Translations under genes and position numbers: made by a program | Notes under the pieces: model-generated | Databases searched by the model: none | What the model saw: the letters and a program-made list of their open reading frames with translations, nothing else | Told to the model about the DNA's origin: nothing | In this document: one piece after another, positions 16,034 through 33,097 of the stretch | How positions within the stretch are numbered: position 1 is the first letter of the stretch | Layout: the number at the start of each line of letters is the position of its first letter | Origin: an uncultured Bacteroidales bacterium | GTDB taxonomy: Bacteria; Bacteroidota; Bacteroidia; Bacteroidales; FEN-979 | Reading direction: 5' to 3' | Length of the DNA: 64,000 bases | Assembly (NCBI GenBank): GCA_903824935.1 | Contig: CAIJYT010000092.1 | Span: 13,119 to 77,118, forward strand

Positions 16034-18700
16034 ATGAAGGTTTATCCCATCATAATTATTTTCTTGTTTAGTGGATTTCTTCTTCCCATAGCACATTCAC
16101 AGGGATCCTGGAACCCGCCGGGGGCCGACCTGAGTTATCCGCGCACCCTGCTCGACAGCAATTCAATCGGTCAGATCAGGGGCACCCTTCCGAACCCGCT
16201 CATCATCGACCTTTACCATTCCATATGGAATACCGCGAATGGCTCCATCCCTGCTGAAGATTCCACCGACGGTGCCCGCATTACCAGGGCCATCATGGCC
16301 AGGGAAACGGCATTCGTACTGTTAATGGACAAAAAATGGGAAAACGGGAGCATAACCAATCTGCTGCCGGCCGAGAGGGATACGCTGACTGCCAGGGCCG
16401 GCACGCTTCTCAGGAGCATGAACACCCATGTAGGATACCAAAGCGGATGGGTCTTTTACCAGGAATGGCAGAACCGGTCGAAAGAGCTGATCAATTACCT
16501 TGAGGCTTACGACCTTCTTAAAGGTGCAGGAACATCAGATACCATAGCCAGGGATTCCCTTGTCCATTTTACAGGAAACCTGTATTACCGGGCCATGGCA
16601 ACATATACTGTTTTTTTCATACCGTTCAAATTCTTTGATTACCAGTTCGACAACCACAGCATCATGACAGCTTCTGCACTTGGCCTTGCTGCCGTCGTTC
16701 TCAATGATCATGAAGATGCAAAAATCAATTACCAGCCGCAGAACTGGATCAATGCCGGCTTATGGAACCTCGACAACACGCTTTGGGTTCAGGATGGAAC
16801 CTACCCCAGGGTTTCCGAATCCGACACTCTTGCAGGTTATGCCGAAGGGCCTGCATATTTCAATTACGCTTTTCAGAATGCTTTCCCGTTCGTCCGTTCT
16901 TTATATAATTTCCTGCCGGACGACAGCATAGCGGTGACCTTCAAGGCGCAGCAAAGGATGATACGAAATCCCTGGTACGATCCGCGCTATGATCGCATTT
17001 ATGACTGGATGAATAAACTGCAGCTGCCCGACGGCAGCGAACCTGCCATTCATGACAGCCCTATCGGGTTCCGCACACATATCACGGCACTTTCGGGTAA
17101 ACCTGAATTTAACCTTTACGATCCCTCCACTTCCTACGACGATCCCTATGTCAGAACCCAGTATATTTCGACCAATGTGTTACAGGGAAGCCGTAGCGAC
17201 AGCCTTTTCCAGGTACTGCCTGCAGCAGGCAGCCTGATTTTCAGGTCATCCTGGTCTGCCGACGCTTTATACATGCACTTTATCGGCAAGCATGGCATCG
17301 CGCTGACCGGCGCCAAATCTCACCACCAGGGAGATGCATCAAGTTTTTCCCTTATGGCTTACTCACAGCTTTTTGCGGTCGACCCGGGATATCCCGGCGC
17401 TCCTGAAAGCAATTTCGTAAACAAGGCAACAAACCACAACTGCATACTGGTGAATGGGGGCGGGCCCCAGCCTCCAACAGGGGAGTTCGTCAACGTGGCG
17501 TCCAATACGGCTTATATTGAAGATTGTTTTCATGTTCCCTCTCTCGAATACGGGGAGGTCCGCACCAGCTACTGGGGCGACAGCATTATCCGCTGCAACC
17601 TCTTCATCAGGAACCGTTACTTCATTCTGAACGATTTGTGTTCCGCGCCAGATAAAAGAAAATACACTTTCCAGTTCCATGGGAACGGCCTGTTTGGCAG
17701 CAGCCCCTCATCCGCCGAAGGCGCATTCATTCCCGATTTTAATAATTTCAGGGGAACCTATAAGCGTGATACGGTTTCATTTCTGCTTCAGGTGCAATGC
17801 GACATGGGTCCTGCAGCTTATGCTTATGAAACGGATTCCCTGGCTGCAGGTTATTCCTCTTACAGGCATTACAGTAAGATGTTTGTGCAGTCAGATTCCG
17901 TTCCTGATGCCAGCTTCCAGAGCATCATGTTTCCTTATATTTCAGATTCGGCAGCCTGCCTGCCGGTCACAGGAATTCCGGGTGCAAGCGCATCCGTTCT
18001 GAAATACCATAATTACAGCGATTTCATAATGACCCAATCGGGGAGCAATACTCAGTCTGTTTCAGCCTCACAGAGCGGCCTGCCGGATGCTGTCAGCTGT
18101 AACGGTCAGATCAACTACCTCGGTCTGGATGGATCGGGGCATGTTTCAACGATTCTGCTAAGGGGCGGAGACCACATTAAATTTGGCAAACAGATTATGA
18201 CCACGACAAACCATCCGATGCTAATTGCCTGGAATGAAATCCAGCCCGGAATAATTGAGGGCTACACCGGTGACAGCGGAAGGGTTTCAATCTACAACAC
18301 ATCGGCATTGAGGGCAGTGAAGGGCAGTATCAAAAGCGTCACCTATGACAGCACGGGCAAAATGAACATCATTGAATTCTCGGGTGAAGGAAAATTCAGG
18401 CTCGAGCCATCAAACGGGATTGCACCATCAACGGAGCACGAAGGCATCGCCATCACCGCGTTTCCCAATCCATCGGCCGACGGCCATTTCACGATACGGC
18501 TGTATTCCGGGACATACTCATCCGCAGTCATTAAAATAACAGACGGACAAGGAAAAACGACAGAGAACAGGACGGTGCAATTGAGGCCGGGCGAAAACGA
18601 TGTGGAGGTAAGCCTTGAGGGTATGCCGGCAGGCGCTTACCTTTTGGGTGTGAGCGCAGCAGGAAGCAAATGCAGCCTTGTTTTGATCAAATGCAGGTAA
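16034..18700 (+). CDS. T9SS-secreted heparinase II/III-like polysaccharide lyase
   Basis: Signal peptide; YAEGPAY, FRSSW, HHQGDASSF, VDPG and HNCILVNG motifs; C-terminal AFPNP...GAYLL T9SS type A signal. Confidence 0.7.
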   Translation: MKVYPIIIIFLFSGFLLPIAHSQGSWNPPGADLSYPRTLLDSNSIGQIRGTLPNPLIIDLYHSIWNTANGSIPAEDSTDGARITRAIMARETAFVLLMDKKWENGSITNLLPAERDTLTARAGTLLRSMNTHVGYQSGWVFYQEWQNRSKELINYLEAYDLLKGAGTSDTIARDSLVHFTGNLYYRAMATYTVFFIPFKFFDYQFDNHSIMTASALGLAAVVLNDHEDAKINYQPQNWINAGLWNLDNTLWVQDGTYPRVSESDTLAGYAEGPAYFNYAFQNAFPFVRSLYNFLPDDSIAVTFKAQQRMIRNPWYDPRYDRIYDWMNKLQLPDGSEPAIHDSPIGFRTHITALSGKPEFNLYDPSTSYDDPYVRTQYISTNVLQGSRSDSLFQVLPAAGSLIFRSSWSADALYMHFIGKHGIALTGAKSHHQGDASSFSLMAYSQLFAVDPGYPGAPESNFVNKATNHNCILVNGGGPQPPTGEFVNVASNTAYIEDCFHVPSLEYGEVRTSYWGDSIIRCNLFIRNRYFILNDLCSAPDKRKYTFQFHGNGLFGSSPSSAEGAFIPDFNNFRGTYKRDTVSFLLQVQCDMGPAAYAYETDSLAAGYSSYRHYSKMFVQSDSVPDASFQSIMFPYISDSAACLPVTGIPGASASVLKYHNYSDFIMTQSGSNTQSVSASQSGLPDAVSCNGQINYLGLDGSGHVSTILLRGGDHIKFGKQIMTTTNHPMLIAWNEIQPGIIEGYTGDSGRVSIYNTSALRAVKGSIKSVTYDSTGKMNIIEFSGEGKFRLEPSNGIAPSTEHEGIAITAFPNPSADGHFTIRLYSGTYSSAVIKITDGQGKTTENRTVQLRPGENDVEVSLEGMPAGAYLLGVSAAGSKCSLVLIKCR

Positions 18701-19410: not shown

Positions 19411-22389
19411 CTAACCTGGAAATTCCGGTTTGAACACCACCCCATAGTTCCGTTTGCCGTCGATCTCGATGCGGATGGGTTTTTCAAAACTTACGTGGCG
19501 GATGTATTCGTCTTCGAAAAGGGCGGGTTGGTCGTTTAGGAAATCAAGGTTGTAAAATCCTTCGTTGATGTAGGGATTGATGGTAAAATATCCCACGCGG
19601 AAAGAAGTGAGGTTCTGAAAAAAATGGGTGCCCTGGCTTGGATCAATGCGGTATTTATCCAGTCCCGATTCAACGATGACCCTTGAATTGGAGATCTGCG
19701 GCCAGCGAACCGGTACACCGAGCCAGGGATCGCTGGACCCCCAACGGCCGGGGCCTACCAGAACATAATATTTCTTTTCGGCCTGGAACCAGTCATTCCG
19801 CTTTTCAAGCCTCAGCGCAATCTCCTGTGTTTTCGAGGCATCCCAGGCAGCTGGCTTCACATATACTACATCATGCAAATCTTTGATGATGCCGTTGCCA
19901 AGGGCTGTCGTGGAGATAAGGATGGTGTTATCGTGAGTAACTTTTTCTTCATCTATGTGGATGGTCTGGTCCCTTCCTGCAATAGGCCTGATCTGAAGAA
20001 GGCTGAACACCTTGGGCTCTCCGGGTGGAGAATCAAGGTTTACGGCAAATTCAATTTCCACCGGCTTGTTCATTTCCCTCTGTCCTATCTCAAGCACCTC
20101 CTGCAAAATCTCTGCAAGCGGGAAAGTGCCATGGGTGAGCTGGGGCGAAAAAGTGATCAGGCGTTTTCCCGTATGCATGATCCCTTCCTTGAGCTGGTGG
20201 CTGTCGTAATCGAAAGTGGATGCAACGATTTTAAGCGAAGGATCATTCTCTGCGTCCTTGATCTTGAGCTTCAGAAGGTTTATGGTGTCGTCGGTATCCG
20301 GCGAAAAACTCTCAGGTTTCAGGTCCAGTGCGAAAAAGAATTTCTGGGTCTCGCTCAGGGCCAGTTCGGGCGTTGAAAGCTGCAATATTTTCTTTGGATA
20401 TTTTGGTGAAAACCTCAGTCCGTTGCCTCCGTCTACGATGTATTTCCCCAGTCCGAATGCGATGTTGGCGATGCCGTCCTCCGGCTTTTCAGGGGCAATG
20501 GGATAGAAATTAATAGATCTTGCAACACCCGAAATAGCAGGATAAAACCTTTCATTATACTGTGTGCCTATGACTTCCTGCAGCACCACCCCCATCTTCT
20601 CTTCGTCTATCATATTAAGGGTGGCGGTCATGTATGACTTGCTGTCCTTGAAATATACCGAAGCATATACCATTTTGATTGCTTCTGTGAGGGTTTCTAT
20701 CATCAGCCTTTCATTCGACCTGATATTCGGTATCATGTAGGTGGAATAGATCCCCGCGAATGGCTGGTAATGGGAGTCTTCAAGCAAACTGGACGAGCGG
20801 ATCGCAATTGGGGTATTCACACAGGAAACAAAAGCGTAAAGGTCTTCATGGATGCGGTATGGAAGACGGGCTTTGATAAAGCGTGCGAGAATCTCAGAAT
20901 CCGAGCGATCCGATAAAGCAATCTCATGAAGATTATTCTCTTCCATGAATTCATCGAAAATATCAGTTCCAATCACCACGGTGCGTGGAATCGAAATTAC
21001 CACGTCGGGATATTTGTACGAAAGCCTGTTCCTCTTGATCAGTGAATCGAGAAATGCCAGTCCGCGTGCCTTTCCGCCAATGGATCCCTCGCCTATCCTT
21101 GCAAACTGAAGATATTCATCATACTTTTCCCTGTCAAAATCTGCAATAACACCTTTGGCCTTGTTGATCCTGAAAGCCGTGATGCCTTCAAAGATATAGC
21201 GCTTGGCCTCATCCATGTCGGCAAATTCCGAAAAGGACACTTCCCTGAACATTTCAGCAATGGGGAAAAGGGCGCGTGCATTGAGCCATTTCGAGAAATG
21301 GTTCCTCTGCATATGATATTTCAGGGAGTCATCGGGAATCTCAAAAATCTTGTCCTGCAAATCCTTCAGGTCGATGGCCCTGGTGATTTCCCGCCCGGAA
21401 CGTGGATCAATGAATAAAAAATCACCGAACGAAAAATGTTCATTGATATAATTTCTGAGTTCAAGAGCCAGTGTTTTCGAATTTTTATTAAGAAACCCTG
21501 TCCCCATTTTTTTGGCCAGCTCTTCGTATTCCTCGTCGGTTGACTGAAACAGCACCGGCATGAATTCATCCTCGGCCCTCACTTTCTCAACAAACCTGAT
21601 ACCTGCTTCCTTATCAGTGTCTCCCTGGCGGGGGAAACTGATGTCGGTGATGATCCCAAGCAGGTTGTACTTGTATTTCTCCCAGAGGTTGACAGCCTCC
21701 TCGTAATTGGTGGCCAGCAGGATCTTGCAACGCCCCCTCATCCGCAGCATTTTATTATGCTCATTCAGCCCTTCGGTCATGAAAGTTTTCGACTGCTTGA
21801 GCATAATCTTATACATATTCGGCAGGTAGCTCGAATAAAACCTGATAGAGTCTTCAACAAGCATGATGGCCTGAACACCCTGTTTCACATCCGAAGGCAT
21901 GTTCATTTTATCCTCTATCAGCTTGATAATGGCCAGGAGGATATCGGCATTGCCCAGCCATGAAAACACATAGTCGATGGCGATGAGGTTCTTTTCGGCG
22001 AGTTTGATATTGACCTCCCTTGAGAACGGGGTCAGCACAACGATAGGGATCCTGGGGTATTTATTCTTGATCTGCATCGCGAGGTCGAAGGTATCGGCCT
22101 GCTCGATATTGAGCATGGAGATCACCAGCTCTATACTTTTATCCTCAAGTACTTCGAAAGCTTCCTTTTCGGAAGTCACCTTGATGAATTGGGGCGGATA
22201 ACGAAGGTTGAGCGAAACATACTCCATGAAAATAGTCTCGTCAATCCTTCCGTCCTCTTCCAGCATGAACGAATCGTAGGTACTTGAGATCAGCAGGATC
22301 TGGTAGATCCTGCGTTTCATCATCAGGTTAAATGAAGTGTCGATGAAGTAATACTTCTTCGGGTTTAAAGCGTTTTGCTTAACCTTCAT
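19411..22389 (-). CDS. Receiver-domain + PEP-synthase-like ATP-grasp (PPDK_N) protein, paralog A
   Basis: Receiver motifs LVEDS, IITDISFP, FQST, LNK; ATP-grasp motifs GGKARGL, AIRSSSLLED, FAGIYST, EIEFA, LQIRP; C-terminal GPGRWG and SQGTHFF. Confidence 0.85.
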   Translation of the reverse strand: MKVKQNALNPKKYYFIDTSFNLMMKRRIYQILLISSTYDSFMLEEDGRIDETIFMEYVSLNLRYPPQFIKVTSEKEAFEVLEDKSIELVISMLNIEQADTFDLAMQIKNKYPRIPIVVLTPFSREVNIKLAEKNLIAIDYVFSWLGNADILLAIIKLIEDKMNMPSDVKQGVQAIMLVEDSIRFYSSYLPNMYKIMLKQSKTFMTEGLNEHNKMLRMRGRCKILLATNYEEAVNLWEKYKYNLLGIITDISFPRQGDTDKEAGIRFVEKVRAEDEFMPVLFQSTDEEYEELAKKMGTGFLNKNSKTLALELRNYINEHFSFGDFLFIDPRSGREITRAIDLKDLQDKIFEIPDDSLKYHMQRNHFSKWLNARALFPIAEMFREVSFSEFADMDEAKRYIFEGITAFRINKAKGVIADFDREKYDEYLQFARIGEGSIGGKARGLAFLDSLIKRNRLSYKYPDVVISIPRTVVIGTDIFDEFMEENNLHEIALSDRSDSEILARFIKARLPYRIHEDLYAFVSCVNTPIAIRSSSLLEDSHYQPFAGIYSTYMIPNIRSNERLMIETLTEAIKMVYASVYFKDSKSYMTATLNMIDEEKMGVVLQEVIGTQYNERFYPAISGVARSINFYPIAPEKPEDGIANIAFGLGKYIVDGGNGLRFSPKYPKKILQLSTPELALSETQKFFFALDLKPESFSPDTDDTINLLKLKIKDAENDPSLKIVASTFDYDSHQLKEGIMHTGKRLITFSPQLTHGTFPLAEILQEVLEIGQREMNKPVEIEFAVNLDSPPGEPKVFSLLQIRPIAGRDQTIHIDEEKVTHDNTILISTTALGNGIIKDLHDVVYVKPAAWDASKTQEIALRLEKRNDWFQAEKKYYVLVGPGRWGSSDPWLGVPVRWPQISNSRVIVESGLDKYRIDPSQGTHFFQNLTSFRVGYFTINPYINEGFYNLDFLNDQPALFEDEYIRHVSFEKPIRIEIDGKRNYGVVFKPEFPG

Positions 22390-22423
22390 ATCTTAAGCGG
22401 AAATTTGCACTAAGATAAGGAAA

Positions 22424-22879
22424 TCAATTCTCTTTCAATACCACATCGTCATATTCGATCTCGAATCTCAGCTTATGCCTTGATTCTTCAAGGGCCAGGG
22501 ACAGTAACAACTGTTTTACTTCAGGGTCGTCGGCCTGGCCTGCAAGCACAGTGTACATGCGGAATGCAGCTTTTTCCTTTTTCATGGCAAGGATGAGAGC
22601 CTCCTGGTAATCCATCTTGGGCGAGGGTTTCACGTCGACCAGGTATTCGGTGATCTTAAGATCCCTTACTTTCTCATCGCTCATGCGAAGGGTCCCGTTC
22701 TCTTTTATTTTCATGAGATTGGCTTTATGCCTCATCTCTTCCTCGGCGAATTCGTGGAAGATCTTTTTTGTTTCCTGGCTTTTTGACTGGGCCGCCAGCT
22801 GTAGATAAAAATCGACTGCAGACTGTTCCTCGCCTATAGCGAAATCAAGTATCTCAGTTATGTTTTTGAATTCTTTCAT
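22424..22879 (-). CDS. Ferritin-like (rubrerythrin-type) di-iron protein without rubredoxin domain
   Basis: Two E-x-EExxH repeats (EEEMRH, LEESRH); no C-terminal CxxC. Confidence 0.85.
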   Translation of the reverse strand: MKEFKNITEILDFAIGEEQSAVDFYLQLAAQSKSQETKKIFHEFAEEEMRHKANLMKIKENGTLRMSDEKVRDLKITEYLVDVKPSPKMDYQEALILAMKKEKAAFRMYTVLAGQADDPEVKQLLLSLALEESRHKLRFEIEYDDVVLKEN

Positions 22880-22917
22880 ATGTCGTAGTATGATTATTAA
22901 TCGGTTTTCCTTTTTTT

Positions 22918-23001
22918 AAGTAGCGAAGTAGCGAGGTAGCGAAGTAGCGAAAATGTAAAACCATAATTTCGCTATTTCGCCTTTTCGCTATTTCGCTATT
23001 T
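22918..23001. repeat. TAGCGARR octamer inverted element
   Basis: 4 forward units (22918-22953), 12-nt AT-rich spacer, 4 reverse units (22966-23001); encodes the last residues and stop (IAK*) of the 1233-aa gene. Confidence 0.9.
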
Positions 23002-26000
23002 GTTTTTCAAACTCCTCTTCAAACTTCTTCGTGACTGCATCGCAGCCAAAATTGTATTTATGTTGGTGATTATCTTTTTCGGTGATTTTAAGCTGCAGTT
23101 TTTTCTCATCTTTCTTTTCAGGGAACAAGGTAACAACTTCCATAAAGACATCGATGGGGTTGCTGCTCACTTTGTGTCCAAAGACTTCCAGAAGGGCAGC
23201 CAATTGCTGCAATCCTGTCAGTTCAACTTTTGGCTTCATGCCTGCCTGGAACTGCTGCAAGACCTTCTGGGAATTGGTAAAGGATCCCCCGCTCTCTGCC
23301 GGTAATGAAGCCGGAAGAATAAGATCTGCCTTTGCTGTTGTTGCCGTCATGAAATAATCCTGTACCATCACGAATTCAGTGGCTTTGAATATGGGTTCAA
23401 TATAAGTCGTATCCAGTGCACAGCCCACGGGATCTTCACCAAAGACGAACAGGTTCTTAACCTTGCCGTCCTGGATCTGCCCGTGCAGGCATTCGGTTTC
23501 GGATGAAGCCAGCGCAGAGCTGTTCCACTTCTCCTGAAGCTTTGCAACATAAGTTGCATCTCCCAGTTCCTGTCCGCCAATACCGTAATGAGGGCTAACG
23601 CCCATATCAAACAGTCCTTGCGAATTGTTCTTCTCCCTGATGGAAACGAGCCCGCTGGATGTCTTGCCAAGCTTCCCGGTGATCATGGCCAGGTTGAACA
23701 GTTCTTTTGAAGCTGCGCCCGAGATCTCTTTTTCAGAGAACAGGATCACTGCATTCATCTCTTTATTGTACATCTCGGCAAAGGCCGCAAGTTCGGGTTC
23801 ACTGATTCCTGCCTCCTTTAATAGGTCGCCGAAGTTCAGTGCAAGAAGCTGCTTACGATATGCTTCAAATCCTTCCACCCTGTCTCTCAGGAAGAGTGCA
23901 TTTTCAAGACCTTTCGAAAGAATGTAGTGGTTGACTGCCTTGATAAAATGGTAATAGGATTTGACCTTCAGTTCCTGGTTCACCTTATGAGTAAGACTGT
24001 TGTTCTCCTTCACCGTTACCAGTAACTGGGGGATCTTCTTCAGGTAATGTGCATTCTGGGCCATAAACCCTGCAACTGCATGGTCGCGGTTGATTTCCGT
24101 GCCTATAAAACAGATCAGGCTGGCATTTTTAATCTCATTGAAAGGAACATTATTTTCGCAGTTCCTGCGGTAACTTTCGCCTCTTCCGAGGTAATGGAAA
24201 CTGCCTACGTTATTGGTCTTCACAGCCAGTCTTGCCAGCTTATGAATGAGATACATCTCTTCGTTGGTCAGCCTGGCGCCTCCGAAGAATGCATTCTGTT
24301 CAGGTTTGACTTTCGAAATTTTCTCCTTTATAAGTCCGAAGGCCTTTTCAAAACTGATCTTTTCAAACTTTCCGTTTACTTTCAGCCAGGGAGCTGTGAT
24401 CCTGGATGCGTCGTTCATGAAATTGTAACCGAATTTCGCGAACCTGCATATGTTCCCGTCGGTGTTGACCAGCCCTTTGCGGCCGGTGACCCCGCAGGTA
24501 AACCCGTTGACCGTTTGCAGGTTGATTGCGCAACCCACCGAGCAGTAGGAGCAGATGCTTTCGACAGCCTTTGTTTTCACAGGGCCCGGTTTGAAGATCA
24601 CATTCTCGGTGATTGCTCCCGTGGGACAGGTAGAGATACACATGCCGCAGGATTCGCAATGGGTATCCTGAAGCGAATCACCCATTGCCGGGGCGACATA
24701 GGTATCAAATCCGCGGTTAACGAATCCGAGTGCGTTGGCTCCCACGACCTCCCTGCAAATCCTGATGCAGCGGCCGCAAAGTATACACTTGTTGTTGTCT
24801 ATCTCTATATAAGGATGACGGAAGTCAACCTGGTATTCCCTGAATTCTCCTTCGAAATATTTCTGCTGAGCATTATATTCAGTCGAGTATTTTTGAAGGT
24901 CGCAGTTGAAGAAAGCGATGCAACCGCATTCAAGACAACGCTGAGTCTCATGATGCGCGACTTCGGCTGCGGAATAGCCCAGTTCAACCTCTTTGAAGTT
25001 GAGCCGCTCTGCAGCAGGCATAGTGGGCATTTCCTCGCGAAGCTGTTTCTCAAATTTATCCAGGTAATCCTCAGCCTTTTGTTTTTTGAAATTGTCGCGT
25101 TTGCTGGTGAAAGGCTTTTTCATGGGAACAATGGGATTGCCCATCACAAACTGGTGAGCGCTGTTCGATGCAAGCCTGGCCTGTGCAATGGCTTCAATGA
25201 TGGTTGCAGGTCCTGTTACCCCGTCACCTGCTGCAAACACCGACGGGATGCCGGTTTGCAGGGTGTTCTTGTCGGCGTCAAGGTCTCCCCATTTGTTTAT
25301 TTTAAGTTCCCCGCCGTTGGCATGGGCGTTGATATCTTCGAGGAAATTCACATCGGTCTTCTGCCCTATAGCTGCGAGAATGTAATCCACCTTCAGTTCA
25401 AAATCGGAACCTTCGACCGGAACAGGCCTGCGGCGGCCCGACGCATCGGGTTCTCCAAGCTCCATTTTAATGCAGGTGACCGATTCAACTTCGCCTTTTG
25501 CATTTTTATTGATCTTCTTCGGAAGGGTCAGGAACATGTATTCAACGCCTTCTAGTTTTGATTCGTGGATCTCGATGGGGTTTGCAGGCATTTCCTTTTC
25601 GGTACGGCGGTAGATCACATACACCTTGTCGGCATGGCAGCGGATGGAGGTGCGGCAGCAGTCCATGGCTGTATTCCCGCCACCTACCACGGCAATAGTC
25701 TTGCCTTTGAAATCATATCGTTTGCCTGTTACTTCCATGTTCTTCAGGAAATCAATACCTGAATATACATTCCCTGCATCATCACCTTCGCAGCCCACGC
25801 CTGTCCCCTTCTGGGATCCTATCGTCAGCACCATCGCATCGTATTTTGATTTGATGTCCTTATAGCTGAGGTTGTCGCCGAACCTCTGGTTGTAAAAAAT
25901 ATTTACGCCGAGATCGGTGATATTCTTCACTTCCTTGTCGAGGATATCGTTGGGAAGGCGGTATTCGGGTATGCCGTAACGCAGCCAGCCACCCGGGTTA

Positions 26001-26689
26001 GTGGCGGCTTCATAGATATCGACCTGGTGGCCTTCGATCTGCATGAAGTGACCTACGGATAAGCCTCCTGGGCCTGCGCCTATTACTGCTATTTTTTTGC
26101 CCGTGGATGGCTTCACGGCGGGTTTATACTTATCGGGACTTTCAAGGTCATGATCAGAAGCATAGCGCTTCAGGTAATCGATTCCGACCGGGGCTCCTTC
26201 ATCGAGCAGGTTCCTGCGGCATTCGTTTTCGCAGGGACGAACGCAAACACGGCCGCAGATGGCGGGAAGGGGGTTGGTTTCCTTGATCAGAGCAACTGCA
26301 TCGCTGTACATTCCTTTTTCGATGAGGGAAATGTATCCCTGTACATCAACTCCTGCCGGGCAGGTTTGCTTGCATGGACCAAGACAATCGGCATAGTGGT
26401 TGCTGAGCATAAGCTCAAGCGCCATTTTCCTCGATTTGCGGATGCCTTCATTTTCTGTGATGATCTTCATCCCCTCGGTGATCTTTGTAGAACAGGCGGG
26501 CTGATGGCCGCGCATACCTTCCACTTCAACCACGCATACATAGCATGAGGTGAAAGGTTCAAGACGTTCATCATTGCAAAGGGTGGGTATCTCTATTCCG
26601 TTACGGTTTGCCACCTGAAGAATGGTCTCACCGGGGTAGCCTTTTACGATATTTCCGTTTAAGATGATGTTTAATGAGTTGTCGGACAT
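22988..26689 (-). CDS. Fe-S flavoprotein: 2Fe-2S + GltD-like NADPH domain + Fdh/NuoG-like domain (StnC/SfrA-B-like)
   Basis: IPTLC..CYVCVVE..C; PCKQTCP and CGRVCVRPCE; GAGPGG and GGGNTAMD; CILCGRC and CESCGMC; CSYCSVGC; Mo-ligand region reads NNVGSFHYL (no Cys/Sec). Confidence 0.85.
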   Translation of the reverse strand: MSDNSLNIILNGNIVKGYPGETILQVANRNGIEIPTLCNDERLEPFTSCYVCVVEVEGMRGHQPACSTKITEGMKIITENEGIRKSRKMALELMLSNHYADCLGPCKQTCPAGVDVQGYISLIEKGMYSDAVALIKETNPLPAICGRVCVRPCENECRRNLLDEGAPVGIDYLKRYASDHDLESPDKYKPAVKPSTGKKIAVIGAGPGGLSVGHFMQIEGHQVDIYEAATNPGGWLRYGIPEYRLPNDILDKEVKNITDLGVNIFYNQRFGDNLSYKDIKSKYDAMVLTIGSQKGTGVGCEGDDAGNVYSGIDFLKNMEVTGKRYDFKGKTIAVVGGGNTAMDCCRTSIRCHADKVYVIYRRTEKEMPANPIEIHESKLEGVEYMFLTLPKKINKNAKGEVESVTCIKMELGEPDASGRRRPVPVEGSDFELKVDYILAAIGQKTDVNFLEDINAHANGGELKINKWGDLDADKNTLQTGIPSVFAAGDGVTGPATIIEAIAQARLASNSAHQFVMGNPIVPMKKPFTSKRDNFKKQKAEDYLDKFEKQLREEMPTMPAAERLNFKEVELGYSAAEVAHHETQRCLECGCIAFFNCDLQKYSTEYNAQQKYFEGEFREYQVDFRHPYIEIDNNKCILCGRCIRICREVVGANALGFVNRGFDTYVAPAMGDSLQDTHCESCGMCISTCPTGAITENVIFKPGPVKTKAVESICSYCSVGCAINLQTVNGFTCGVTGRKGLVNTDGNICRFAKFGYNFMNDASRITAPWLKVNGKFEKISFEKAFGLIKEKISKVKPEQNAFFGGARLTNEEMYLIHKLARLAVKTNNVGSFHYLGRGESYRRNCENNVPFNEIKNASLICFIGTEINRDHAVAGFMAQNAHYLKKIPQLLVTVKENNSLTHKVNQELKVKSYYHFIKAVNHYILSKGLENALFLRDRVEGFEAYRKQLLALNFGDLLKEAGISEPELAAFAEMYNKEMNAVILFSEKEISGAASKELFNLAMITGKLGKTSSGLVSIREKNNSQGLFDMGVSPHYGIGGQELGDATYVAKLQEKWNSSALASSETECLHGQIQDGKVKNLFVFGEDPVGCALDTTYIEPIFKATEFVMVQDYFMTATTAKADLILPASLPAESGGSFTNSQKVLQQFQAGMKPKVELTGLQQLAALLEVFGHKVSSNPIDVFMEVVTLFPEKKDEKKLQLKITEKDNHQHKYNFGCDAVTKKFEEEFEKQIAK

Positions 26690-26731
26690 GATGAGTATTA
26701 TTTTCGATGTAATATTTTCAATTGATGTAAA

Positions 26732-26793
26732 ATGTACGATGTACGATGTACGAATTATATTTCGCTACTTCGCTACCTCGCTATTTCGCTACT
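26732..26793. repeat. Mixed-arm element: ATGTACG x3 followed by TTCGCTAY x4
   Basis: atgtacg atgtacg atgtacg (26732-26752), then ttcgctac ttcgctac ctcgctat ttcgctac (26761-26792). Confidence 0.85.
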
Positions 26794-26795
26794 TT

Positions 26796-28586
26796 TTATG
26801 TTAATACGATGCTGCTGAATTTGCATTTGGTGAAGCAGACCCCGCACTTGGTGCAGAGTTCCTGGTTGATGAAGTGTGGTTTTTTGCGTTCTCCGGTGAT
26901 AGCTTTCGAAGGGCAATTCTTCAGGCAGACCAGGCAGCCGGTGCATTTTTCCTGGTCGACTGTATAAGTAAGCAGGGGGCGGCAGACTTTGGCCGGGCAT
27001 TTCTTGTGGAAGATATGAGCCTCATACTCATCCCTGAAATACTTGATGGTGGTGAGAACAGGGTTTGGTGCAGTCTGTCCAAGTCCGCAGAGTGAATTAT
27101 CCTTGATCTGGTAGGCAAGCTCCTCGAGCTTTTCAATATCTCCTTCCCTGCCCTGTGCGTTGGTGATACGCTCAAGTATTTCGAGCATCCTCATCGTGCC
27201 CATGCGGCAGAAAGTGCATTTGCCGCAGCTTTCCTTGCGGGTGAAATCCAGGAAAAATTTGGCTACATCGACCATGCAGGTGGTTTCATCCATTACGACC
27301 ATACCGCCTGAGCCCATGATAGCGCCTGTGGCATTTACCGAATCGTAATCCACAATAGTATCGGAGAGATATTCGGGAATACATCCTCCCGAAGGGCCAC
27401 CAAGCTGAACTGCTTTGAACCTTTTATCATTCTTGATCCCGCCTCCCAGCTTGAAGATCACATCCCTGATGGTCATTCCCATGGGGACTTCAACAAGTCC
27501 CGAACGCCTGATCTTTCCTGCGAGTGCGAAAACCTTGGTGCCCTTGCTTTTCTCTGTGCCGTATTTTGCATACGCGGGAGCGCCGTTAAGTATGATCCAT
27601 GGAACGTTGGCAAAAGTTTCAACATTATTGATGTTGGTAGGTTTCTTCCAGAGCCCTGATGCTGCAGGGAATGGCGGGCGTTTGCGGGGCATGCCGCGTT
27701 CGCCTTCTATGGATGCGATAAGAGCGGTTTCCTCACCGCAAACGAATGCGCCTGCTCCTTCCTTGATGTAAACGTCGAAATCCCATCCTTTGATGCCGAA
27801 TGCATTTTTGCCGAGATATCCTTTTTCATGGGCCTGGCCGATGGCTATGTTAAGCCTCTTGATGGCCAGCGGGTACTCGGCCCTGCAGTATATGACACCA
27901 CCTGTGGCTTCGATTGCATAGGCTGCAATGATCATGCCCTCCAGCACGGAATGCGGGTCGCCTTCAAGCACAGAACGGTCCATGAATGCACCGGGGTCTC
28001 CTTCATCCGCATTACAGATTACATATTTCTGTTCCGATTTATTGGCATTGGCGAATTTCCATTTCATCCCTGTCGAAAATCCACCGCCCCCGCGGCCGCG
28101 TAGCCCCGATTCAAGAATGGTTTTGATGATATCTTCACGGGAGATCTTATCCATCACTATCTTTTTCATGGCAGTATAGCCATGCCGGTGCTCATAATCT
28201 GCAATGGATTCGGGGTCCATATAACCGCAGTTGCGGAGAACGATCTTAACCTGGGAATTGATGAAGTCGTTTTCGGCAGCATCAAACAGATCGGTGTAAA
28301 CTATATAATCCCTGATGGGGTCGTTCTGGTTTATATGCTTCTCTATCACCTCAACAGCGCGGTCTTCATTGATATCGCCATAGAGGTAAGTTCCTGTTTC
28401 ATCGGTGATCTCCACCAGTGGTTCCCGATAGCACATCCCGACGCAGGAAGTCTTATGCAATTCGAATGCAAGGTTTTCCTGTTCCTTTAAAGCTTTTATT
28501 TTTTCATAGGTCTTATGAGCTCCAGCTGCGATGCCGCAACTTCCCAGACCGACTGTTACTGTAGTCATCATAACTTTTTCTCTCAA
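26796..28586 (-). CDS. HydB/NuoF-like NAD(H)/FMN-binding subunit (StnB-like)
   Basis: N-terminal thioredoxin-like 2Fe-2S domain; GRGGGGF, NADEGDPGAFMDR, GAGAFVCGEETAL, ESCGKCTFCR, SLCGLG; C-terminal 2x[4Fe-4S]; start uncertain (TTG 28586 or ATG 28571). Confidence 0.92.
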   Translation of the reverse strand: MREKVMMTTVTVGLGSCGIAAGAHKTYEKIKALKEQENLAFELHKTSCVGMCYREPLVEITDETGTYLYGDINEDRAVEVIEKHINQNDPIRDYIVYTDLFDAAENDFINSQVKIVLRNCGYMDPESIADYEHRHGYTAMKKIVMDKISREDIIKTILESGLRGRGGGGFSTGMKWKFANANKSEQKYVICNADEGDPGAFMDRSVLEGDPHSVLEGMIIAAYAIEATGGVIYCRAEYPLAIKRLNIAIGQAHEKGYLGKNAFGIKGWDFDVYIKEGAGAFVCGEETALIASIEGERGMPRKRPPFPAASGLWKKPTNINNVETFANVPWIILNGAPAYAKYGTEKSKGTKVFALAGKIRRSGLVEVPMGMTIRDVIFKLGGGIKNDKRFKAVQLGGPSGGCIPEYLSDTIVDYDSVNATGAIMGSGGMVVMDETTCMVDVAKFFLDFTRKESCGKCTFCRMGTMRMLEILERITNAQGREGDIEKLEELAYQIKDNSLCGLGQTAPNPVLTTIKYFRDEYEAHIFHKKCPAKVCRPLLTYTVDQEKCTGCLVCLKNCPSKAITGERKKPHFINQELCTKCGVCFTKCKFSSIVLT

Positions 28587-28609
28587 TTAATGATGGATAA
28601 TTATCAATT

Positions 28610-28692
28610 AAGTAGCGAGGTAGCGAGGTAGCGAAGTAGCGAAATTTTATTATTTGTTTTCGCTATTTCGCTATTTCGCCATTTCGCTATTT
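28610..28692. repeat. TAGCGARR octamer inverted element
   Basis: 4 forward units (28610-28645), AT-rich spacer, 4 reverse units (28657-28692) abutting the HydC-like stop. Confidence 0.9.
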
Positions 28693-29209
28693 AGTTTTGT
28701 TCAGCTAACTTGATATTCTTGATTATCCTGACTGCTTCGTTACCGGTAAGCTTGCCGTAGGTCTGATCGCCTATCATCATGACCGGTGCAAGGGAACAGC
28801 AGCCCAGGCAGGCTACTGATTCCAGGGTATAAAAGCGGTCTTCGGTGGTTTCACCGTCCTTTACTTTGAGCATTTCTTCAATGGCTTCGGTGATCTCCTT
28901 GGCGTTCTGCACATGGCAGGCTGTTCCGTGGCAAACCTTGATGATATGCTTTCCAACGGGTTTCAGCCTGAACTGGGCATAAAACGTGGCGACGCCGAAC
29001 ATATCGCCCAGGGGTATGCCGCATTCGGAGCTGATCTTCTCAAATACAGGCCTGGGGATAAACCCGAAAAGTTCCTGGGCCCCCTGCAGCAATGGGATAA
29101 GGTTCCCTTTTTTTCCTTTGTTCTTTTCAATCAGAGGTTCGAGCAGCCTCAGGTCAACATCCTCTTCGGCATTCTCAGTCTTCTTTGTGGTTAATCGTGT
29201 GATTCGCAT
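28691..29209 (-). CDS. HydC/NuoE-like 2Fe-2S subunit (StnA-like)
   Basis: LIPLLQ, VATFYAQF, VCHGTACHV and ACLGCCSLAP motifs. Confidence 0.93.
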   Translation of the reverse strand: MRITRLTTKKTENAEEDVDLRLLEPLIEKNKGKKGNLIPLLQGAQELFGFIPRPVFEKISSECGIPLGDMFGVATFYAQFRLKPVGKHIIKVCHGTACHVQNAKEITEAIEEMLKVKDGETTEDRFYTLESVACLGCCSLAPVMMIGDQTYGKLTGNEAVRIIKNIKLAEQN

Positions 29210-29210
29210 T

Positions 29211-32200
29211 TTATTTATTTGTGTCTTGTTGTTTATCTTGTTTCCAGGTGATCACCGAGATCCTCTGCTTCCCGTCCATGCGGATAGAAAGCGGCTGTTC
29301 AAAGTGAACGATGCTGAAATATTTAGTTTTTCTTATATTCTTTTGCTTTTTCAGTACATCATACCGGATGAAACTGTTGGAAAGCTCAGGCTGAATGCTG
29401 AAATACCCAACGTTCATGGAAGTCACATTGTGAAAGAAATGTGAACCCGAAGAAGCATCCAGGGGGAAACCCTCGAGGCTGGTCTCGACGATCACCTTTG
29501 CCTGGCTTATCTGGGGCCAGTTCACAGGTATTCCAATCCATCGGTCACGTGTGCCCCATCTGCCGGGACCTATCAGTACGTACTTCTTTTCGGCCTTGAA
29601 ATACTCATGGTTTATATGATTGATCTCTTCGGCCATCTCCTGGGTTTTTTCCTTGTCGAAAGTATCCGGATCTACAAAAACCACATCATGGATATCCTCC
29701 ACATGGCCATTACCCATCTCTTTTTCGGCAAACAGCAGGATCTCGGCAGGATTGATCTTGCTCATATCCACATTATAATCTGTAAGGTTGCCGATCAGGG
29801 GTTTGATCTGGAGCAGGTAAAATGAAGCCCTGTTCTCGTCATCCTTGTTCAGGTCAACGGCAAATTCAATCTCAACAGGGGTTCCAAGAGCTTCCTTCAC
29901 CACGTCGAGCACCACTTCCACGGTCTTTGCGAGAGGGGCGAAGTTGTATTTGAGGATATCTGCAAAATTGACGACCCTGGGTCCTGGCTGGTTCAGTCCC
30001 GGAGAGATACGGTTGTTCTCAAGGGAGTAAACCGAGGCAAGATGCTTAAGGGTTCCATGTTCTTCGGCTACATCGATATCCATCATCCGCAACCCGGCAT
30101 CTTCCCCTTCGAGCAGGTTCACGTTCTCCTTTTTAAGGTCTACAGCATAAAAATGCAGCTGCGAGCCTTTGTACTGATCCGTTGGGGTGTTTATCTCGAG
30201 GTTGGGGTATTTGGGCGAGAACCTGAAAGCCTTCTCCCCTTCCACCACGTAACGGCCAAGTCCGAGTGCAATAACCGCTACACCTTCCTCGGGTTTCATA
30301 TGTGCAAAGGGATAATAATTGTATGAATGTGCAACTCCGCTGATATGCGGGTAAAACACATCATCATACCGGTGGCCCACAACCTCCTGTATCACTACGG
30401 CCATCTTCTCCTGCTCTATCCTGTAGTTCACTGCCTCAATATACCCCTTGGCAATAGGAGAATACACCGAAGCATAGACCAGCTTGATGGCATCCATAAG
30501 CTGTTCAAGCCTTACATTGGGATCGGGATGGTTATTGGGGATGAGGTAGGTTTCGAATATCCCTGCGAAGGGCTGGTTCAGTGAATCCTCGAAGAGCCCT
30601 GAAGAACGTATGGCCAGGGGATTCCTGATGGACTTGATCACCGATTTCAGCCTCGGATCAAGGTATCGGTGAGTCTTCCGTTGATGAACCTGTGCCTCAG
30701 GAGAGTATAGTCGCTCTCGAGCAAGGCCTGTTCCCTGAGCCTGTTCCTGTCGAGGAAATACTCGAACTCCTCTGTTCCGATAATGGATGTTTTAGGGGTC
30801 CTTATATTGATATTCGGGATGATCTGCGAAAAATCATAATTATAAATAAGGGTGCTTACAAAAGCAAGTCCCCTTCCTTTCCCTCCCAGAGCACCTTCGG
30901 ATAAGGCCAGGATGTTTCTCTCATCGGCAATGGCATCTTCCTCGAAGGGAATGACCTTCCCCACATTCTGCTCGTTGCGGAAATGCTGTATCATGGTGAT
31001 GAGATACTCCCTGAGATCCTGGGGTTTCTCAAAATCGGTAACCTTGGCCGGGTTGATAATCTTTGCTGCCTGGACCTCTCCCCTGGCCATCAGCCATAAA
31101 GAAAAATGATCCTTGCGGGCATGGTAAAGCAGGGATTCCTCGGGAATGGTCTTCAGCAGGTCTTCAAACTCCTTGAGGGATTTTGCAACTGCAATCTGGC
31201 TTCCGCCGGTATCCCTGTATATAAAACTCCCGAATCCAAGGTAGTGGGTGATAAAACTGCGGAAATCGGCCAGAAGGGTTTCTGAATTCTTATTGATGAA
31301 GGATGTCTTGAGTTCGTATGCCTGCTGGGCGTTCATGTTATCGGCCGACTGCAGTATGATTGGTAGTTCTTTCAGCTCTTTCCTTGTCTGTTTTACCAGG
31401 GAGAAACCTGCAGTTTCGTTCAGCCTTCCGTCTTTATTGAATTTCACATCAGAGATCAGGCAAAGGATGTATTCCTTGTACTTATGAAAGATATAAAGGG
31501 CTTCCTCGTAGGTGGATGCCAGAAGTATCTTGGGCCTGGCCTTGAGACGGAGAATGCGGTAAAGCTCATCGGTAGTCACATCTTCAATAATGGTCTTGGT
31601 CTGCTCCAGCACAATATTATACAGCATCGGGAGATACAGCGAATAATAGCTCGGTGAATCTTCAACGAGCAGTATCACCCTCACCATACCGATATTCGTG
31701 TCGTTTTCAACGTTCACCTTGTCTTCAAGGTAGTTGATCATTGCGAAGAATATCTTCGAATCCCCGTTCCAGACAAAGACCCTGTCGATCCATGTCAAAC
31801 GTTCAGGGGCATTATCGAACAAATGGATATCGGTATTGCTGTTCAGCAGCAGGAAAACCGGGATATACTGGTATAGGTCCTTGATCTTCCTGCTGAGTTC
31901 TACAGGGAATTGCTTATCAACCCCCATCATAATTATTACGAGGTCGTAATGTTTGGAACCAAGCTGCTCCATGACTTCCTCGGTGCTGGAAACCCCGGTG
32001 ATACGCGGCATGGTTGAGAGGCTGAGCTGGTAGAACTCGCCCAGCACGTGTTCCGAAAACCTTCCTTCCTTTTCAATGCTGTATGCATCGTAAAGGTTGG
32101 CAACCAGAAGTATCTCCCTCACCTTAAAAGGCATGAGGTCGTGGTAGAGGTCTCGGTTGTAGTTCGTCCTGTTGAGGAAGGTATGCAGAAGCTTGCGGCT

Positions 32201-33097
32201 GGCCCTGGTTTCCTGTTCAGAATCGGACCTGGGGCCCTGGGCCATGGCAAAGCCGCTTTTGCGCATTATCGCCTTCCCTTTTACGCTGTTAAGGTAGCCT
32301 GTGACAAGATTGGCAAGGTTGATGATCAGGTAACGCTCTTCTTCAAGGAAAGGCCCCTCAAACGCAAGGGGAAAAGCTTTAAGATAGAATATTTCAATGG
32401 ATCCGACCTGGCTGTCGATAGTCTCGAACAACTGCCGCTGGCACCATTTGGTTTCGCTGAAATTCTGGCTGGTGATCTCAATCTTACCGTACCTGATGCG
32501 GCATACAGCATTTTCGGGGAATTGCCAGGCCGAAGGAAGTATCATACAGACCTGGTGAAGCGCTTCTTCAACAGGGCGGCCGGCCCTGAGGATGTTGGTG
32601 GTCTGGTTGATGGCCGAAAGCTCTTTCAGTCTTTCCTTTGTGATATAACGGCCTTCACGCCCTTTGACCCCGTTGAGGAAACCCTCAATAAGGCTGGCCA
32701 TGTTCAGGATGAGATTCCTTTCTTCCTTCATGAAAGGACCTTCATCGCTGGCTGGAAATTCTTTTGTGTAAAAAATTTCTATGGTGCCGGTAAGCCCGTC
32801 AATGCTCTCAAATACCTGTTTCAGGCACCATTGGGTTTCGGTAAACTCCTGGGTGGTAACATCTGTTTCATCATACCTTATCCTGGCCGCAGTATACTCA
32901 GGGTACTGCCAGGCTTTGGGAATGATCGAACAGATTTCGTAAAAAGTTTCCTGTATTGGTTTATTCTTTTTCAGGATGGCTGTGGTGGCATTTAAAGCTG
33001 CAAGCTCTTTAAGCCTCTCCCGGTTGTCGTATACCAGACGGTCCAGATCGATATTTTCAGACAGATTATTCTTGTTGCCGTTACCCGGATCATCCAT
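29211..33097 (-). pseudogene. Receiver + PEP-synthase-like protein, paralog B, with two N-terminal GAF-like repeats; split by a 1-nt frameshift near 30653 (pseudogene or sequence error)
   Basis: ORFs 30647-33097 and 29211-30641 are in different frames; adding one base gives FINGRLTDTLIRRLKSVIKSIRNPLAIRSS, colinear with paralog A, and a 1295-aa protein. Confidence 0.8.

What the first reader, a model, noticed from the sequence alone, without database searches (positions are those of the whole stretch)
19411..33097. Two receiver + PEP-synthase-type ATP-grasp + His-motif proteins with no pyruvate domain: candidate non-canonical phosphorelay kinases bracketing a redox operon
Seen: paralog A (19411-22389) and paralog B (29211-33097) each have a degenerate receiver, then a receiver with the acidic pocket, phospho-acceptor Asp and Lys apparently intact (A: LVEDS/IITDISFP/FQST/LNK; B: LVEDS/LISDVKF/LQSA/INK). 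Next come a PPDK_N-type ATP-grasp domain (GGKxRGL, AIRSS, FAG, EIEFA, LQI(R/K)P) and a short C-terminal domain with a shared His motif (SQGTHFF, His codon 19624-19626; SSGSHFF, His codon 29439-29441). Both end there. Established: true PEP synthase/PPDK need a C-terminal pyruvate-binding barrel and pass phosphate through a swivel-domain His (TSH motif). Inference: these are not PEP synthases. They may autophosphorylate the His and transfer to a receiver Asp or to a protein target such as GdhA or the enclosed complex, possibly as an A/B hetero-oligomer. I recall such genes lying next to gdh in other anaerobes under automatic PEP/pyruvate-binding annotations, but I know of no demonstrated function.
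Basis: partly seen in the sequence, partly recalled or inferred. Interest (0 to 1): 0.8.

Follow-up and report, generated by a model that had tools for sequence, protein, structure and literature searches.

The report
Dikinase-like switches for glutamate dehydrogenase
Two large genes around a predicted NADPH-handling enzyme operon encode signal-receiver proteins with the ATP-using half of PEP synthase, a predicted phosphate-carrying histidine domain and no pyruvate site; because each type of these genes sits beside its own type of glutamate dehydrogenase in related bacteria, they are likely an unstudied control switch for that central nitrogen enzyme.

Summary
The motifs are real. A (19411-22389) is intact. 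Neither has a PEP/pyruvate barrel. The end domain is predicted (pLDDT 94) to resemble PPDK/RPH swivel domains (top ranks, Z 6.1-6.6, no sequence signal). Its His is invariant in 147 of 147 homologues, 19 of which have no receiver, so the receiver is probably an input, not the acceptor. In a phylum sample, 49 of 63 carrier genomes have gdh within 7 kb; NfnABC linkage is local (1 of 80 loci). Subfamilies pair with GDH types: A with PRK14030-type (22 of 23), B with this window's GdhA type (11 of 11), receiver-less forms with family-II GDH (10 of 10). Best reading: receiver-gated, VadK-like His autokinases that control a cognate GDH. Binding and phosphotransfer are untested; the complex predictor was unavailable, and a published B. 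fragilis mutant shows no phenotype. The scan found this family before on other DNA.

The parts
19411..22389 (-). Paralogue A, 992 aa: pseudo-receiver, receiver, small helical domain, ATP-grasp, His domain
21895..22311 (-). A REC1, pseudo-receiver (Met92 at the acceptor site); approximate bounds
21424..21879 (-). A REC2, intact receiver; acceptor Asp249 at 21643-21645
19975..21102 (-). A PPDK_N ATP-grasp domain (K440, R531, T550, E780, Q799)
   Evidence: Pfam E 1.9e-40
19414..19974 (-). A C-terminal His domain, predicted swivel-type fold; His922 at 19624-19626
29211..33097 (-). Paralogue B, about 1295 aa; one base missing at 30653 in this assembly only
32267..33040 (-). B: two tandem 129-aa N-terminal repeats, possibly GAF-like sensors (lead only)
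31238..32125 (-). B pseudo-receiver and receiver; acceptor Asp550 at 31448-31450
29211..30890 (-). B ATP-grasp and His domain; His codon 29439-29441
28691..29209 (-). NuoE-like NfnC/StnA-type subunit, 1 nt after B's stop codon
26796..28586 (-). NuoF-like NfnB-type subunit (ATG start at 28571 is more likely)
22988..26689 (-). NfnA-type subunit, 1233 aa (NfnL/GltD-like plus Fdh/NuoG-like)
   Evidence: best PDB 9bov E 2.7e-235, 8oh5 6e-215, 9n5u 6.4e-182
22424..22879 (-). Rubrerythrin/ferritin-like protein, 151 aa
33354..34700 (+). GdhA, family-I glutamate dehydrogenase (PRK09414, NADP-type by annotation), divergent from B across 256 nt; predicted partner of B

Best explanation
A and B are pyruvate-barrel-less relatives of PEP synthase/PPDK that likely work as signal-gated histidine autokinases, each predicted to control its own glutamate dehydrogenase. 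Shown: the domain order, intact ATP-grasp residues, invariant His, absent barrel, and subfamily-matched gdh linkage. Predicted: the end domain is a swivel-type phosphocarrier. Inferred: the ATP-grasp domain phosphorylates the His from ATP (releasing AMP and Pi as in dikinases); phosphorylation of REC2 by an unknown kinase, and ligand binding to B's repeats, gate this step; the phospho-His state then changes GDH activity, by state-dependent binding as proposed for VadK or by transfer of the phosphate to GDH. By pairing, B would act on the adjacent GdhA and A on the second GDH on contig C113. NfnABC is likely a lineage-specific recruit that balances NADPH for GdhA.
For: His922 invariant in 147 of 147 full-cover homologues down to 25% identity, and the motif is in 119 of 119 and 120 of 120 database hits not picked by it. 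RPH residues needed for ATP use (Lys22, Arg117, Thr136; PMC4844700 passages) map to K440, R531, T550: R531/T550 by alignment, K440 by motif; K440 and R531 are invariant in 147, T550 in 132 of 132. Model pLDDT 93.8 with the His at a helix start between two strands; top structural matches are His-carrier domains of PPDK, RPH, pyruvate kinase and Enzyme I. gdh within 7 kb in 49 of 63 carrier genomes, 26 of 80 genome loci, 29 of 80 metagenome loci, against about 1% by chance. Adjacent pairs match by type: A-type with GDH2-like 22 of 23, B-type with GDH1-like 11 of 11, receiver-less forms with family II 10 of 10; B-adjacent GDHs form one branch, support 87. All 51 genomes with the near subfamily have a family-I GDH, against 49 of 249 others. 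Precedent: VadK autophosphorylates and co-purifies with enzymes encoded beside it (PMC13400623).
Against: No biochemical or binding evidence. Fold Z scores are under 8, Foldseek finds nothing at E<=0.001 and profile comparison with true swivel domains gives no signal, so the His register is argued from secondary structure only. About half of the loci with full flanks lack gdh (13 of 29 and 16 of 30 have it), and A here is not adjacent to its predicted partner. Genomes are kin: 8 of the 11 B pairs come from the window's own family, and all my genome surveys are Bacteroidota (GTDB sense). In B. fragilis P207, insertions in the adjacent gdhA gain +0.8 to +1.25 fitness in deoxycholate (8 of 8 replicates) while insertions in the family gene PTOS_003162 are neutral (-0.11 to +0.08); which GDH type that gdhA is could not be checked.
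Confidence: 0.52

Rival explanations
1. Small-molecule dikinase or ligase like RPH, PigC or HpeHI: the phospho-His activates a metabolite of the glutamate/2-oxoglutarate node, with the acceptor site supplied by a partner (the paralogue, or GDH), so GDH is a pathway neighbour and not a target.
For: Nearest NCBIfam models are PigC/RedH and RPH-like PRK06241; HpeHI shows dikinases can be split over two chains (PMC12167813 abstract); tandem and fused two-core forms exist.
Against: No substrate domain lies between ATP-grasp and His domain, and 580-aa forms consist of the core alone; no other metabolic gene recurs in the loci I annotated; pairing follows GDH type.
Confidence: 0.2
2. Self-contained His-to-Asp phosphorelay: the His phosphorylates REC2 of the same protein or of the paralogue, replacing a classical histidine kinase.
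For: D249 is kept in 126 of 128 receiver-bearing homologues, the other 2 being gaps; a crude motif found no classical kinase in 0 of 80 loci, about 4 expected (weak).
Against: 19 of 147 homologues lack receivers but keep the His; N-terminal modules vary (repeats, REC pair, unrelated domains) as inputs do; no separate output domain exists in A or B.
Confidence: 0.12
3. A and B regulate the enclosed NfnABC complex.
For: B-nfnC-nfnB-nfnA-(rbr)-A is kept in 10 of 10 own-family loci chosen for having both paralogues on one contig; nfnC starts 1 nt after B's stop.
Against: NuoF-like gene near 1 of 80 and 1 of 80 wider loci, while gdh is near about a third.
Confidence: 0.07
4. Regulated PEP synthase that borrows a pyruvate-binding barrel from another chain.
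For: Database names; PF02896 was not found in the own genome.
Against: That search would also have found a stand-alone barrel; 9 of 10 other genomes of the genus have a full PF02896 enzyme, so the gap in this 95%-complete assembly is probably missing sequence.
Confidence: 0.03

Closest known systems
VadK (Rv1127c) of Mycobacterium tuberculosis (PMC13400623; abstract, passages, sections 11 and 16 read)
   Same: ATP-grasp plus catalytic-His domain with no pyruvate/PEP barrel; proposed to regulate metabolic enzymes encoded nearby, post-translationally.
   Different: VadK is a truncated PPDK of about 50 kDa without sensor domains and targets methylcitrate-cycle enzymes. A and B carry receivers and repeats, a His motif S.G[TS]HFF with no sequence match to PPDK-type swivel domains, and track GDH. 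Direct homology to VadK was not tested.
PEP synthase / pyruvate phosphate dikinase
   Same: PPDK_N ATP-grasp directly followed by a predicted swivel-type His domain.
   Different: No C-terminal barrel; N-terminal receivers; far below curated cut-offs (TIGR01418 34 bits against 740).
Rifampin phosphotransferase, PigC/RedH, HpeHI (PMC4844700 passages; PMC12167813 abstract)
   Same: Same ATP-site residues; C-terminal His domain; RPH swivel is a top fold match (Z 6.5-6.6).
   Different: They have a substrate-binding domain before the His domain; A and B have none there.
PleD-type REC-REC-output response regulators
   Same: Tandem receiver pair before an enzymatic output; PleD is the best Foldseek match of the N-terminal half (E 6e-7).
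   Different: Here the first receiver is the degenerate one and the output is a dikinase core.
NfnABC / StnABC Bfu-family transhydrogenase (PMC11829005 passages; PMC10482914 and PMC12018979 search listing only)
   Same: Three enclosed genes match in subunit size and domain order; best PDB hits 9bov, 8oh5, 9n5u.
   Different: Known enzyme type; here it is flanked by A and B, in this family only among my samples.

Membership tests
PEP synthase / PPDK | N-terminal ATP-grasp (PPDK_N) with catalytic Lys, Arg, Thr | tested here: met
PEP synthase / PPDK | Swivel phospho-His domain (fold) | tested here: inconclusive
   top-ranked matches are swivel His domains but Z 6.1-6.6; Foldseek none at E<=0.001
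PEP synthase / PPDK | PF00391 sequence signature (GG.TSHAA) | tested here: not met
   no Pfam hit; profile comparison no better than shuffled columns
PEP synthase / PPDK | C-terminal PEP/pyruvate-binding barrel (PF02896) | tested here: not met
   both proteins end about 70 aa after the His
VadK-type regulatory dikinase | ATP-grasp plus conserved His, no barrel | tested here: met
VadK-type regulatory dikinase | ATP/Mg-dependent autophosphorylation on the His | not testable with these tools
   needs purified protein
VadK-type regulatory dikinase | Binds the neighbouring metabolic enzyme | not tested
   complex predictor not available; linkage only
VadK-type regulatory dikinase | Sequence orthology to VadK | not tested
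   no VadK sequence was fetched
RPH/PigC small-molecule dikinases | Substrate-binding domain between ATP-grasp and His domain | tested here: not met
   PPDK_N ends at 809 and the His domain starts at about 806-815
Response regulator | Receiver fold with acidic pocket, Asp, Ser/Thr, Lys (REC2) | tested here: met
Response regulator | Phospho-acceptor Asp in REC1 | tested here: not met
   Met in 114 of 128, no Asp among the listed residues
Response regulator | Cognate histidine kinase | tested here: inconclusive
   crude motif: 0 of 80 loci, none in the window, 16 elsewhere in the genome
NfnABC / StnABC | NuoE-like, NuoF-like and NfnL+Fdh-like subunits in one cluster | tested here: met
NfnABC / StnABC | NADPH-dependent bifurcation to NAD and ferredoxin | not testable with these tools
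   needs enzyme assay

The most novel reading that the evidence does not exclude
A widespread third route of covalent control in nitrogen assimilation: dikinase-derived enzymes with a divergent swivel domain pass the beta-phosphate of ATP through a His onto glutamate dehydrogenase itself. Each paralogue co-duplicated with its GDH isoenzyme and has swappable inputs (receivers, GAF-like repeats); in one branch a fused nucleotidyltransferase would add a GlnE-like modification. It would fill for GDH the role GlnE/GlnD play for glutamine synthetase, in anaerobes including gut Bacteroides.
Probability: 0.25. Interest if true: 0.88.

Novelty: new variant of a known kind. Interest (0 to 1): 0.66.

Why it matters
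GDH is the carbon-nitrogen junction in anaerobic Bacteroidota, including gut and rumen species, and this genome shows neither GlnE nor P-II (95% complete). A family with at least 7,994 database members, labelled 'PEP synthase' or 'PEP/pyruvate-binding protein', would be a post-translational GDH switch; the label also risks adding a false reaction to metabolic models. The pairing gives a sharp test: B with the adjacent GdhA, A with the distant GDH, not crosswise.

Tried and rejected
Complex prediction of the A core with its predicted GDH partner was not available, so binding is open. The 1.84-billion-protein profile search never ran (queue full, 10 tries), so range outside Bacteroidota rests on Atlas cluster labels (Chloroflexota, Bacillota) and earlier notes. 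One search was meant to sample another phylum through a genome whose record title names Acutalibacteraceae, but returned largely the same genomes as (same contig coordinates; 79 of 401); it is not counted as independent. Sequence searches of the His domain against PDB and true swivel domains found nothing. No RNA holder was listed. Programmed frameshift or pseudogene for B: rejected. Baggio and Morrison 1996 (title seen only in the reference list of PMC4539542; text not held) reports trans-acting genes downstream of gdhA in B. thetaiotaomicron; in my Bacteroides, Phocaeicola, Parabacteroides and Prevotella loci the family gene is mostly divergent from the PRK14030-type gdh, so it does not fit simply and is not used as support. 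A post hoc column contrast found S/T33+P42+M389 in 49 of 55 linked GDHs and 2 of 37 GDHs from genomes without the family (37 of 49 such genomes fetched); the columns were picked from 448 and kin are confounded, so it is a lead only. The careful GDH tree did not finish; the quick one is cited. Paper searches that found no study of this family: (open-access library only; locus tags were recalled).
Full report
Observation. The listed motifs and both His codons are in the sequence at the stated places. A (19411-22389, minus strand) is one ORF of 992 aa; Pfam finds Response_reg and PPDK_N (E 1.9e-40) and no PEP-utilizers or PEP-utilizers_C in A or B. B is split in the window: an 816-aa ORF stops at 30647 and the rest lies in another frame. 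Contigs from three of four runs laid on the region carry one more base behind 30653; two of them are otherwise identical to the window over that contig and come from different studies, though X1 may be the window's own source. B is a single ORF of 1285-1327 aa in 11 of 11 own-family loci. The break is an assembly error. B also starts with two 129-aa repeats, 53% identical, with a weak GAF lead; relatives carry from none to several.

Setting. Hits name Bacteroidales and the holders are freshwater metagenomes. Between B and A lie NuoE-like, NuoF-like and 1233-aa NfnA-like genes and a rubrerythrin. The large subunit's best solved relatives are 9bov, 8oh5 and 9n5u, and its domain order fits the NfnABC description in PMC11829005 (passages). 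gdhA lies divergent from B, 256 nt away. A second GDH is on contig C113.

Catalytic anatomy. I collected 156 family ORFs from 120 loci, kept the 150 of 550 aa or more and set aside 3 partial ones. In the other 147, K440, R531, S532, S533, E537, D538, E780, Q799, G881-R-W-G, D887, E907, G920, H922, F923 and F924 are invariant. One of the two seed patterns contained the His motif, so those 80 loci are biased toward it; the motif is also in 119 of 119 and 120 of 120 hits, which were not picked that way. R531 and T550 align with RPH Arg117 and Thr136 (assuming a 12-residue tag offset) and K440 matches Lys22 by motif; these residues are needed for RPH function (PMC4844700 passages). The last 187 residues fold with pLDDT 93.8, the His opening a helix between two strands, the pattern seen around the TSH motif of PPDK sequences. 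Among 48,161 chains the best matches are the PPDK phosphoryl carrier (Z 6.6, rmsd 3.5, 117 aligned), RPH swivel (6.5, 3.3, 112), the pyruvate kinase extra domain (6.4), maize PPDK (6.1) and Enzyme I (5.8); a second look ranks RPH and PPDK chains first to seventh. All Z are under 8, Foldseek gives nothing at E<=0.001 and profile comparison gives no signal. A divergent swivel domain is likely, not proven.

Receivers. The N-terminal half folds well (pLDDT 90.7); REC2 matches receivers at Z up to 14.5 and the pair resembles PleD. D249 is kept in 126 of 128 receiver-bearing members. But 4 core-only proteins of about 580 aa and 15 distant ones have no receiver and keep the His. Many distant ones end in a nucleotidyltransferase domain (GS..DxD in 111 of 120 hits). 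The constant part is ATP-grasp plus His domain; the N-termini vary like inputs.

Partner. In an even sample of 301 genomes of the phylum, 64 carry the family. Using 97 of the 102 listed matches and the gdh matches among the 150 of 431 listed, 49 of 63 other carrier genomes have gdh within 7 kb, a lower bound; chance is about 1%. Most distances are about 1.7 kb from the C-terminal half, meaning gdh is the next gene. Independent locus sets give 26 of 80 and 29 of 80, or 13 of 29 and 16 of 30 with full flanks, while a NuoF-like gene is near 1 of 80 in each. The Nfn operon between A and B is kept in 10 of 10 own-family loci, which I chose for holding both genes on one contig, with gdh divergent from B in 8. 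Among genes within 1.5 kb of a gdh, A-type pair with the C113-like (PRK14030) GDH in 22 of 23, B-type with the window's GdhA type in 11 of 11 (12 rows, one GDH in two pieces), distant and core-only forms with family-II GDH in 10 of 10; three unclassified receiver forms went two to family I and one to family II. The one A exception is a gene flanked by both GDH types. A quick tree puts the B-adjacent GDHs on one branch (support 87). Eight of the 11 B pairs are from the window's family, so this is not 11 independent events. All 51 genomes with the near subfamily have a family-I GDH, against 49 of 249 others, counted by hand. Tandem paralogues occur in 13 of 80 loci, and six 1630-aa proteins fuse two cores, which fits paired action.

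Not PEP synthesis. PF02896 is found in 36 of 41 related genomes as a separate enzyme; it was not found in this 95%-complete assembly, probably a gap.

Published data. VadK of M. tuberculosis lacks the barrel, autophosphorylates His422 and co-purifies with PrpC and PrpD encoded beside it (PMC13400623: abstract, passages, sections 11 and 16). I found no paper on this family in eight searches of the open library. In B. fragilis P207, PTOS_003162 (2970 nt, PPDK_N plus two receiver folds; identified by annotation, not sequence) lies next to gdhA, is transcribed (about 110 RPKM), rises 2.2-fold in deoxycholate and is non-essential (PMC10197588 supplement rows). Its mutants are neutral where gdhA mutants gain about +1. 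This speaks against an obligate activator of that GDH in rich medium; the strain has a second GDH, PTOS_003143, also neutral, and I could not tell which is the cognate one.

Mechanism. Most likely (0.52): a gated His autokinase that tunes its cognate GDH. Shown: anatomy, conservation, linkage, pairing. Predicted: swivel fold. Inferred: autophosphorylation, gating by REC2 and the repeats, action on GDH by binding or phosphotransfer. Rivals: small-molecule dikinase (0.2), own His-to-Asp relay (0.12), NfnABC regulator (0.07), PEP synthase (0.03).

Novelty. It works like VadK but is not shown to be its orthologue, and it fails the PEP synthase/PPDK and RPH membership tests. It is a new variant of a known kind. 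The scan noted the family on other genomes before; those notes are leads, not support. Added here: the frameshift resolved, the fold ranking, the receiver-less controls and the paralogue-to-GDH pairing with a crosswise test.

Noticed in passing
window 22908-23007, 26753-26800, 28600-28706: Intergenic arrays of an 8-nt unit (TTCGCTAC-like and its reverse complement), often as inverted pairs that could form hairpins. 144 sites on 82 contigs genome-wide, 26 as inverted pairs, none in 1.5 Mb of shuffled sequence. REP-like element.
   Followed up: partly
L135, L137, L138, L141-L146; proteins P0123-P0242: Distant subfamily in Ignavibacteria-type genomes with a C-terminal polymerase-beta-like nucleotidyltransferase (motif intact in 111 of 120), often in an operon gdh (family II) - core-only gene - NTase-fused gene.
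   Followed up: partly
P0228, P0231, P0233, P0237, P0240, P0241: About 1630-aa natural fusions of two ATP-grasp/His cores, five with the NTase motif.
   Followed up: partly
L185:1803-4199 (G000:C112): A separate 798-aa RPH/PigC-like dikinase with a canonical swivel domain, below all curated cut-offs; substrate unknown.
   Followed up: no
L139, L150 (773-780-aa distant forms): These members lie divergent from a fumarase/aspartase-family lyase gene, with no gdh in the 11-kb region fetched; possibly a different partner at the same metabolic node.
   Followed up: no
L053:6696-7697; similar-length genes in L045, L042: A Crp-family regulator gene sits between the A-type gene and gdh in L053.
   Followed up: no
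G000 whole genome: No P-II (PF00543) and no GlnE (PF03710) found in this 95%-complete assembly, although P-II rings in 13 of 14 control genomes.
   Followed up: no
window 16034-18700: 888-aa protein with a weak heparinase II/III-like hit and a T9SS sorting domain, downstream of A on the other strand.
   Followed up: no
L088, L089: Record titles say Acutalibacteraceae, but the phylum search centred on the genome of L088 returned the Bacteroidota sample; the title is probably a mislabel.
   Followed up: partly
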